From Octopus vulgaris (lineage: Eukaryota): a stretch of 64,000 nucleotides of DNA. Both the position numbers and the translations under genes were made by a program. The stretch's first letter is position 1. Every line of letters starts with the position of its first letter. The notes beneath the pieces were generated by a model, which was not told the DNA's origin, did no database searches, and saw only the letters and a list, made by a program, of their open reading frames with translations. This document shows, piece after piece, positions 10,501 through 11,647 of this stretch. The stretch lies in contig OX597817.1 of assembly GCA_951406725.2 (NCBI GenBank), positions 67,704,001 through 67,768,000 on the forward strand, given 5' to 3'.

Positions 10501-11214
10501 TCCAAGCAAACAGGTCTGGCCATGGGAAAAATATTACCTTATCTGACAGCTTGTATAGCATACTTATAAAAGAAAAGGCCTAGGGAAATCACCCACTATT
10601 TTATGATATACACAAAGTCAGTGTTCAGAGAAATGTTGTGGTTTAAAATTGCTGTCTGCTTTATAAGCTCATGTACACCATAAAAGCTGGCAGTGAGCAA
10701 GAAAATAAGTGACAAACAATTAAGAGAAAGGAGTGGTTTTTGAGAAATAGATAGATAGATAAAATGTAGGAGCAAAGAGCAGACCACAACTCTTTAACTT
10801 TTTAGCAGTTGAACCAGTCATATCTTGCCGAAATATTCAACTGGATTTATGTTTAAACTGGCTGGATTTGGCCTTAAAAATAAACAATCATGCCACTGAA
10901 GTTTGAAATGCATGACTAATTCAGATGAATTTCTTTTATTTTCTTTTACTTGTTTCAGTCTTTAGACTGTGGCCATGCTGGGGCACTACCTTGAAGAATT
11001 TTAGTCCTACTTAGTAGCATTACTACTGTACTTAGTAGTATTACTGGTTATGATATGCCAAGAAATTATGATAAATACAAATTTATATCATTGGTTCCTA
11101 CATACATTTCCCCATTGTGATGGTTTGGTCTCTGCACTGGATGGTCTAAGTGCAATGGGATTGCTTAATAACAAGTGATCATCATCAGAGTAACACTTTA
11201 TTGCATTAGGTTAC

Positions 11215-11607
11215 TGTTGTGTGGACGCCCCCAGACGATGAAGTAGGCTAGCCCAATACGTAGATATAGAAGGAGAAGTCTAGATGTCAAGAGTTGAGTA
11301 GAGGTCATCCGAACGTGCGATATAACTGTGGCGATACGGTCCCAGAACCATAAGCAAAAGCAGAACCGACACGTAGGTCGAACAGGAAAAGAAAACCTAC
11401 AGAAATTATGGAAATCAACGCTAAGAGAAAAAGATATGCCAGTTTCTCACCGAAGAAATAAAATTGATAAATTCAGGTTTAAAAAACTCAAAAAGGGGAG
11501 ATGTTGTGTGGATGCCCCCAGACGATGAAGTAGGCTGGACCAATATGCAGATATAGAAGTCAAGACGTCAGAGTTGAGTAGAGGTCATCAGAACGTTCGA
11601 TATAACA
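11215..11607 (+). mobile_element. TRIM-like miniature LTR retrotransposon
   Basis: Direct repeats 11215-11327 and 11502-11607 (TGTT...AACA). TGGCGATAC PBS-like site at 11329; purine tract AAAAAGGGGAGA at 11490-11501; 5-bp TSD GTTAC (11210-11214, 11608-11612). Confidence 0.85.
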
Positions 11608-11647
11608 GTTACAAAGATCTAATGTCTTAGGCTTGGATTTAAATCTT

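What the first reader, a model, noticed from the sequence alone, without database searches (positions are those of the whole stretch)
11210..11612. Complete 393-bp TRIM-like LTR retroelement in an animal genome
Seen: 113/106-bp LTRs with TGTT...AACA ends, a TGGCGA PBS-like site 1 nt after the 5' LTR, a polypurine tract abutting the 3' LTR, a 174-bp non-coding interior and a perfect 5-bp TSD (GTTAC). Known: TRIMs are common in plants and described in few animal lineages. Inference: possibly an undescribed cephalopod TRIM family mobilised by an autonomous LTR element. LTR divergence suggests this copy is not recent.
Basis: partly seen in the sequence, partly recalled or inferred. Interest (0 to 1): 0.72.

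Follow-up and report, generated by a model that had tools for sequence, protein, structure and literature searches.

The report
One-off shrunken Gypsy retrotransposon copy
This 393-letter insertion is a real but single, internally deleted copy of an old 4.3-kb jumping gene of an octopus-like animal, likely shortened by a copying slip of reverse transcriptase, and not a multiplying miniature family of its own; sister copies that carry extra copied tRNA letters at their joints suggest how true miniature elements may be born.

Summary
The structure is real: LTRs of 113 and 106 bp, a perfect GTTAC duplication, a purine tract and a 174-bp interior. It is not an amplified TRIM family. It is a deletion product of a ~4.3-kb Ty3/gypsy family (about 1,000 LTRs, tRNA-Ser(GCU) primed, old and broken). 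The interior is 6 letters of the 13-letter primer site joined to the last 41 codons of pol plus the purine tract. That joint occurs at only one other place in the genome, behind a second primer site, and is single-copy in three related organisms. Eleven short two-LTR copies (393-548 bp) have eight different joints. Many joints start exactly where plus-strand strong-stop DNA ends: 18-letter tRNA copies, five copies with 49 tRNA letters joined through a 10-letter overlap to the end of integrase, and LTR fold-backs with target duplications. Faulty second strand transfer is therefore the likeliest origin (about 0.6); a deletion after insertion is not excluded, because this copy's own joint is decayed. 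The five tRNA-read-through copies keep a full primer site and may be a small true TRIM lineage.

The parts
11210..11214 (+). left target-site duplication (GTTAC)
11215..11327 (+). 5' LTR, 113 bp, TG...ACT; 93-94% like 3' LTRs of longer family copies
11329..11334 (+). remnant of the primer-binding site: 6 of the 13 letters that pair with the 3' end of tRNA-Ser(GCU) in longer copies
11335..11338 (+). deletion joint: 3-4 letters that match neither side exactly; position 11338 reads A in runs of organisms B, D and E
11339..11461 (+). relic of the last 41 codons of the parent's pol (integrase C-terminus), one internal stop, ending at the parent's stop codon
11490..11501 (+). polypurine tract
   Evidence: 61 tract-LTR joints genome-wide
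11502..11607 (+). 3' LTR, 106 bp, TG...CA
11608..11612 (+). right target-site duplication (GTTAC)

Best explanation
The element is a single, internally deleted copy of a 4.3-kb Ty3/gypsy retrotransposon, likely made when plus-strand DNA, having copied the LTR and the start of the tRNA-Ser primer, jumped to a wrong place just upstream of the purine tract and the short product was then integrated whole. Shown: the parent family, the two pieces that make up the interior, the unique joint, the duplication of the target site. Inferred: that the loss happened during reverse transcription rather than later, and that with 6 primer-site letters the copy could not be primed again, so it never multiplied.
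For: Parent: two copies of 4233 and 4290 bp align over their whole length and family copies carry gag (DUF7083, zf-CCHC), protease, RT, RNase H and integrase pieces in Ty3/gypsy order. The window copy maps to parent positions 1-123 and 4011-4290. Joint found 2 times in 2.8 Gb at 1 and at 3 mismatches, controls 0; a contig across the joint has single-copy depth in 3 of 3 contig runs laid. Eleven short copies, 10 with perfect duplications, eight joints. Among 26 deleted copies found by their 3' end alone, 4 leave directly from a tRNA copy at the primer site, against 0.12 expected if uniform (p 7e-6); 4 of 7 short ones with an intact 5' LTR (p 0.003) (breakpoints read by hand). 59 LTR ends are followed by exactly 18 tRNA letters although the parent's site pairs over 13; of 30 read, 7 fold back into an inverted LTR and 1 jumps straight to the LTR tail; 11 of 14 fold-back loci show both arms and 8 have perfect duplications. 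Five copies carry 49 tRNA letters ending at base 37 and sharing 10 letters with the acceptor. Stops before m1A58 and at modified A37 are the known plus-strand stops (PMC13191261, passages).
Against: The window copy has no tRNA letters beyond the parent's own primer site, so it lacks the direct signature. Its joint is 3-4 letters off the 5-6-letter overlap used by L008, and the A at 11338 in related organisms makes the fit worse. Most longer copies also have large internal deletions with scattered breakpoints, and L002 and L038 are cut inside the 5' LTR at 6-letter overlaps, so ordinary later deletion is common enough to explain this copy. The tree does not reject one origin for the short copies (p-AU 0.11, 9 rows).
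Confidence: 0.6

Rival explanations
1. A full-length or longer copy inserted here and about 3.9 kb were deleted afterwards by host repair, leaving a few filler letters at the joint.
For: Filler-like letters at the joint; widespread internal deletions in this old family; 19 of 30 sampled LTRs are solo LTRs, so later loss is frequent.
Against: The left breakpoint falls in a 19-bp target out of about 4,060, where copies with proven tRNA copies also break. Organisms B, D and E already have the short form (contigs only, so a longer allele is not excluded).
Confidence: 0.32
2. The copy belongs to a TRIM family that was transcribed and reverse-transcribed in this short form by the Gypsy partner.
For: Size, LTRs, purine tract and duplication fit; 5 of 10 other short copies pass an 80/80 comparison with it; L008 has a joint at the same acceptor; one clade of short copies is not rejected.
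Against: No second copy with this interior; L008 keeps the first primer site and a 56-bp unit, so it is a different event; primer site cut to 6 letters; short copies are scattered in the best tree and never formed one group in 200 bootstrap trees for the two labelled sets.
Confidence: 0.07

Closest known systems
Plant TRIMs derived by internal deletion, e.g. rice OsajRetroS10 from OsajLTRA10 (Gao et al. 2016, PMC4717578; passages and sections 18 and 22 read)
   Same: About 400 bp, 115-bp LTRs, LTR and interior both taken from a coding partner, breakpoint at the primer site (near base 130 there, base 123 here), 5-bp duplications.
   Different: The rice element is multi-copy, recently mobile, from a Ty1/copia partner, and joined at a 25-bp repeat; this copy is unique, old, from a Ty3/gypsy partner and has a cut primer site.
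Animal TRIMs: biv-TRIM (PMC6934838, first fifth read), ant and cestode TRIMs (search listing), Helenus and Ajax (PMC10886601, passages)
   Same: Short, non-coding, two direct terminal repeats, purine tract.
   Different: Those are amplified families with one fixed interior; biv-TRIM has 202-218-bp repeats and a 77-80-bp interior; Helenus and Ajax carry small-RNA sequence inside the LTR. No sequence comparison with them was run.
Retroviral deletions by errors in strand transfer (Pulsinelli and Temin 1991; title seen only in a reference list; content recalled)
   Same: Deletions that begin at the primer site and keep both LTRs; tRNA copied beyond the primer site.
   Different: Described for retroviral vectors in one round of cell culture; here fossil germ-line copies of a retrotransposon.
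Ty3/gypsy elements of the K02A2.6-like group (Mag lineage by recall; mollusc clades in PMC6238403, passages)
   Same: Domain order PR-RT-RH-IN, zinc-knuckle gag, short LTRs; nearest named proteins are K02A2.6-like and worm or mosquito retrotransposon proteins.
   Different: Clade not tested with reference elements; family name in Repbase or Dfam could not be checked.

Membership tests
TRIM | Shorter than 1,000-1,500 bp with two direct terminal repeats of about 100-250 bp | tested here: met
   393 bp, 113/106-bp LTRs
TRIM | Target-site duplication | tested here: met
   GTTAC on both sides
TRIM | Polypurine tract before the 3' LTR | tested here: met
   11490-11501
TRIM | Usable primer-binding site complementary to a tRNA | tested here: not met
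   6 letters left of the family's 13-letter match to tRNA-Ser(GCU)
TRIM | No coding capacity | tested here: met
   Only a broken 41-codon relic of the pol end
TRIM | Bookkeeping rule of Gao et al. 2016: two complete copies, or one plus a solo LTR, with different duplications; 80/80 grouping | tested here: met
   5 of 10 other short copies pass 80/80; 19 of 30 sampled LTRs are solo
TRIM | Amplified in the short form: several copies with the same interior and different target sites | tested here: not met
   Joint at 2 places, the second with another leader; single-copy depth in three related organisms
TRIM | Transcribed and mobilised in trans | not tested
   No RNA run was laid; the family looks extinct (smallest LTR-LTR difference 4.3-4.9%)
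Ty3/gypsy (parent family) | pol order protease, RT, RNase H, integrase | tested here: met
   Pfam hits on open stretches of L033, L035, L037, L039, L049 in that order along the copies
Ty3/gypsy (parent family) | TG...CA LTRs, tRNA primer site, purine tract, 5-bp duplications | tested here: met
Mag lineage of Ty3/gypsy | Groups with Mag, SURL or Gulliver in an RT/RNase H tree | not tested
   Only names of nearest proteins seen; no reference elements in hand

The most novel reading that the evidence does not exclude
This family preserves the birth of a TRIM by a primer read-through error: reverse transcriptase copied 49 letters of tRNA-Ser, past m1A58 to base 37, and jumped through a 10-letter overlap to the end of integrase, creating 480-550-bp elements with a complete primer site that then spread as a small octopus TRIM lineage (five copies). 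The window copy, the LTR fold-backs and the abundant one-LTR forms of about 170 bp would be dead-end products of the same error-prone second strand transfer.
Probability: 0.4. Interest if true: 0.5.

Novelty: new member of a known kind. Interest (0 to 1): 0.27.

Why it matters
For the copy itself little: it is one more deleted LTR retrotransposon, and a warning that structure alone (two LTRs, duplication, short interior) calls TRIMs that never multiplied. The family matters more: how TRIMs arise is open (only 11 of 289 plant subfamilies had a long partner, PMC4717578), and here joints that contain copied tRNA show that at least some TRIM-sized elements are made during reverse transcription, with stops at tRNA bases 58 and 37 readable in an animal germ-line record.

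Tried and rejected
pattern one letter too long, result ignored and repeated; off-by-one in the allele table, repeated. Idea that the 170-bp one-LTR forms are solo LTRs of a long-LTR variant: rejected, none of 66 loci with a called 3' LTR end is followed by a primer site. Idea that they come from two tRNAs priming at once: weakened, because in copies whose LTR has the C variant the last unit has C in 14 of 30 against 2 of 26 inner units (p 0.002), so the last letters often come from the 3' LTR end. Tree of 63 3' segments: star-like, 7 of 60 branches well supported, neither shows nor rejects one origin of the short copies; four rows with the same flanks as others were left out. Raw-read run X22 laid 0 reads (3% of the run read), no test. 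One search's breakpoint count included copies found through their joints and is biased; one search is the one used. Three older papers were not held. Earlier-findings look-ups by sequence and by words gave nothing. Pfam found nothing for window ORFs 17594-20815, 12210-12641, 1407-1808. My notes say 52 tRNA letters; recounting gives 49.

Full report
Observation. The LTRs differ by 10 substitutions in 106 positions and two gaps. The LTR start occurs twice in the window and never in 100 shuffles. The 5' LTR ends in AACT rather than AACA. The host is an octopod: a window protein is 83% identical to one of Argonauta hians.

Parent family. A search of the own genome gave 1,446 candidates, 40 scored. 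Nearly all hits matched positions 124-393 but not the joint. Longer stretches showed two whole copies of 4233 and 4290 bp, and open stretches of family copies hit gag (DUF7083, zinc knuckle), aspartyl protease, RT, RNase H and integrase in Ty3/gypsy order. In the 20 long loci scanned the longest family open stretch was 412 codons, so the copies seen are broken. Nearest named proteins are K02A2.6-like; the Mag label is recalled, not tested. Genome-wide there are 986 LTR starts, 548 LTR-end plus primer-site matches, counting repeats within a copy, and 61 purine-tract/LTR joints, 2 of them from another family. LTR-LTR difference has a median of 11.0% in 22 copies with good duplications, range 4.9-19.7; the window's 9.4% is typical, so the family is old.

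Primer. The site after the LTR is complementary to tRNA-Ser(GCU): a 28-letter motif from copy L014 found 34 places, and ARAGORN called tRNA-Ser(GCT) in 12 of 14 loci given. In long copies the leader is LTR, a 13-letter primer site, a 56-bp unit ending like an LTR end, a second 11-letter site, then gag.

What the interior is. The window copy maps to parent positions 1-123 and 4011-4290: six primer-site letters, three or four letters that fit neither side, then the last 41 codons of pol with one internal stop, the stop codon and the purine tract. A pattern for this joint finds only the window and L008, at one and at three mismatches, controls 0. L008 keeps the first primer site and the 56-bp unit and leaves from the second site, so it is another event. 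Runs of organisms B, D and E have the left flank-LTR boundary, and a contig across the joint at single-copy depth with A at 11338. The short form is thus older than their split and was not amplified in them either; contigs show presence only.

Other short copies. Eleven two-LTR copies of 393-548 bp were found, 10 with perfect duplications, with eight different joints; 5 of the 10 others pass an 80/80 comparison with the window copy. Most longer copies are deleted too, with scattered breakpoints: a continuum from about 170 bp to 4.3 kb. In a 63-row tree the short copies are scattered, but one clade is not rejected (p-AU 0.11). By the bookkeeping rule of Gao et al. 2016 (PMC4717578, passages and two sections) this set would be filed as a TRIM subfamily; biologically the window copy has no daughters and too short a primer site.

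How the deletions arise. Several sister copies contain tRNA letters that the parent lacks and that only reverse transcriptase copying its primer would supply. 59 LTR ends are followed by exactly 18 tRNA letters, the known stop before m1A58 (PMC13191261, passages). Of 30 read, 17 rejoin the 56-bp unit, 7 fold back into an inverted LTR, 3 jump to the LTR tail directly or after a unit, 2 jump to the end of integrase and 1 is cut. A fold-back pattern found 14 places (control 3); with two earlier loci, 11 of 14 examined show both arms and 8 have perfect duplications, two of which are one duplicated insertion. Five copies (L014, L030, L272, L274, L271) carry 49 tRNA letters, ending at base 37 next to the anticodon, another known stop, and share 10 letters with an acceptor that occurs once in the reference copy. 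Among 26 deleted copies found by their 3' ends alone, 4 leave from a tRNA copy at the primer site against 0.12 expected (p 7e-6, breakpoints read by hand). The window copy breaks in the same 19-bp target, which is why faulty second strand transfer is my best reading (0.6). It lacks extra tRNA letters and its joint does not fit the overlap used by L008 without 3-4 adjacent changes, so later deletion with filler stays open (0.32).

A possible real TRIM. The five read-through copies keep a complete primer site and purine tract and four have both LTRs with different perfect duplications (L271 has lost the left part of its 5' LTR). For one origin and amplification: four of five resemble a tRNA variant found in only 4 of 29 gene copies read, none the commonest (14 of 29). 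For repeated errors: their LTRs are of different types, each pair closest to itself in three of four copies; they differ in a 30-bp repeat; L014 matches another tRNA variant exactly; the tree scatters them without rejecting a clade (p-AU 0.27). Undecided.

One-LTR forms. Of 30 sampled LTRs, 19 are solo, 9 are LTR plus primer site plus one or more 56-bp units, 1 a 3' LTR, 1 cut. Of 63 unit-ended copies, 32 have perfect and 10 one-mismatch duplications among 56 with a start found. No 3' LTR is followed by a primer site (0 of 66), and the last letters often carry the copy's own LTR variant (14 of 30 against 2 of 26), so these are extreme deletions between the unit end and the 3' LTR end over about 12 letters. 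Their frequency beside solo LTRs suggests a reverse-transcription route; this is inference.

Known and new. TRIMs are described from ants, bees, cestodes, bivalves, fish and nemerteans (PMC6934838, first fifth; PMC10886601, passages). One search for octopus, transposable elements, TRIM and non-autonomous LTR gave only the latter paper; Repbase and Dfam could not be checked, and no supplements were read. Deletions by strand-transfer errors are known from retroviruses (Pulsinelli and Temin 1991: title in a reference list; content recalled). Searches for integrated fold-back strong-stop products or extended primer sites in retrotransposons listed nothing that appeared to describe this, judged from titles and abstract starts. 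Two earlier AI notes on this genome describe similar misjoined copies in other families; unchecked.

Verdict. Real structure, ordinary nature: a one-off deletion derivative of an old Ty3/gypsy family, new member of a known kind, interest 0.27. The family's tRNA-containing joints are the part worth a specialist's time.

Noticed in passing
L014 1304-1783, L030, L272, L274, L271 (G000 C11:89.17 Mb, C11:16.21 Mb, C12:51.99 Mb, C20:16.89 Mb, C17:78.16 Mb): TRIM-sized copies with 49 letters of copied tRNA-Ser joined by a 10-letter overlap to the end of integrase; full primer site; possibly a small true TRIM lineage.
   Followed up: partly
L335-L346, L333, L334: About 250-bp palindromic insertions: LTR, 18-letter tRNA copy, inverted LTR, mostly with one recurring joint and 5-bp duplications; they look like MITEs but derive from strong-stop DNA.
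   Followed up: partly
L113-L190, L275-L334: Abundant one-LTR forms of about 170 bp or more (LTR, primer site, 56-bp unit) with 5-bp duplications; about half as common as solo LTRs in a sample of 30.
   Followed up: partly
L238, L162, L118, L178: The 56-bp primer-site unit has expanded into tandem arrays of 8 to about 50 copies inside single elements, a satellite-like outgrowth of an LTR leader.
   Followed up: no
window 17594-20815 and 53261-54085: Exons of a TALE-class homeobox gene (Homeobox_KN) with a very long exon of about 1,050 codons, conserved across molluscs and Lingula; the element lies about 6 kb before that exon.
   Followed up: partly
window 11648-12015: Long imperfect hairpin (arms 87, 68 and 32 bp) 40 bp right of the element, multi-copy by read depth; likely a MITE-type repeat.
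   Followed up: no
window 10942-11006: Very high-copy repeat fragment (depth), SINE-like.
   Followed up: no
window 12210-12641: Open stretch with a motif recalled from Tc1/mariner transposases; Pfam gave no hit.
   Followed up: partly
L042 5993-8710 (-): 906-codon open stretch with a PIF1-like helicase next to a family copy, probably a Helitron piece.
   Followed up: no
G000 C3:70.85-70.90 Mb and C7:103.87-103.89 Mb: Clusters of tRNA-Ser(GCT) genes with several variable-arm variants.
   Followed up: partly
L038 9395-9723: Another short copy with perfect duplication in which only the first 16 letters of the 5' LTR are joined by a 6-letter overlap to the integrase end.
   Followed up: no
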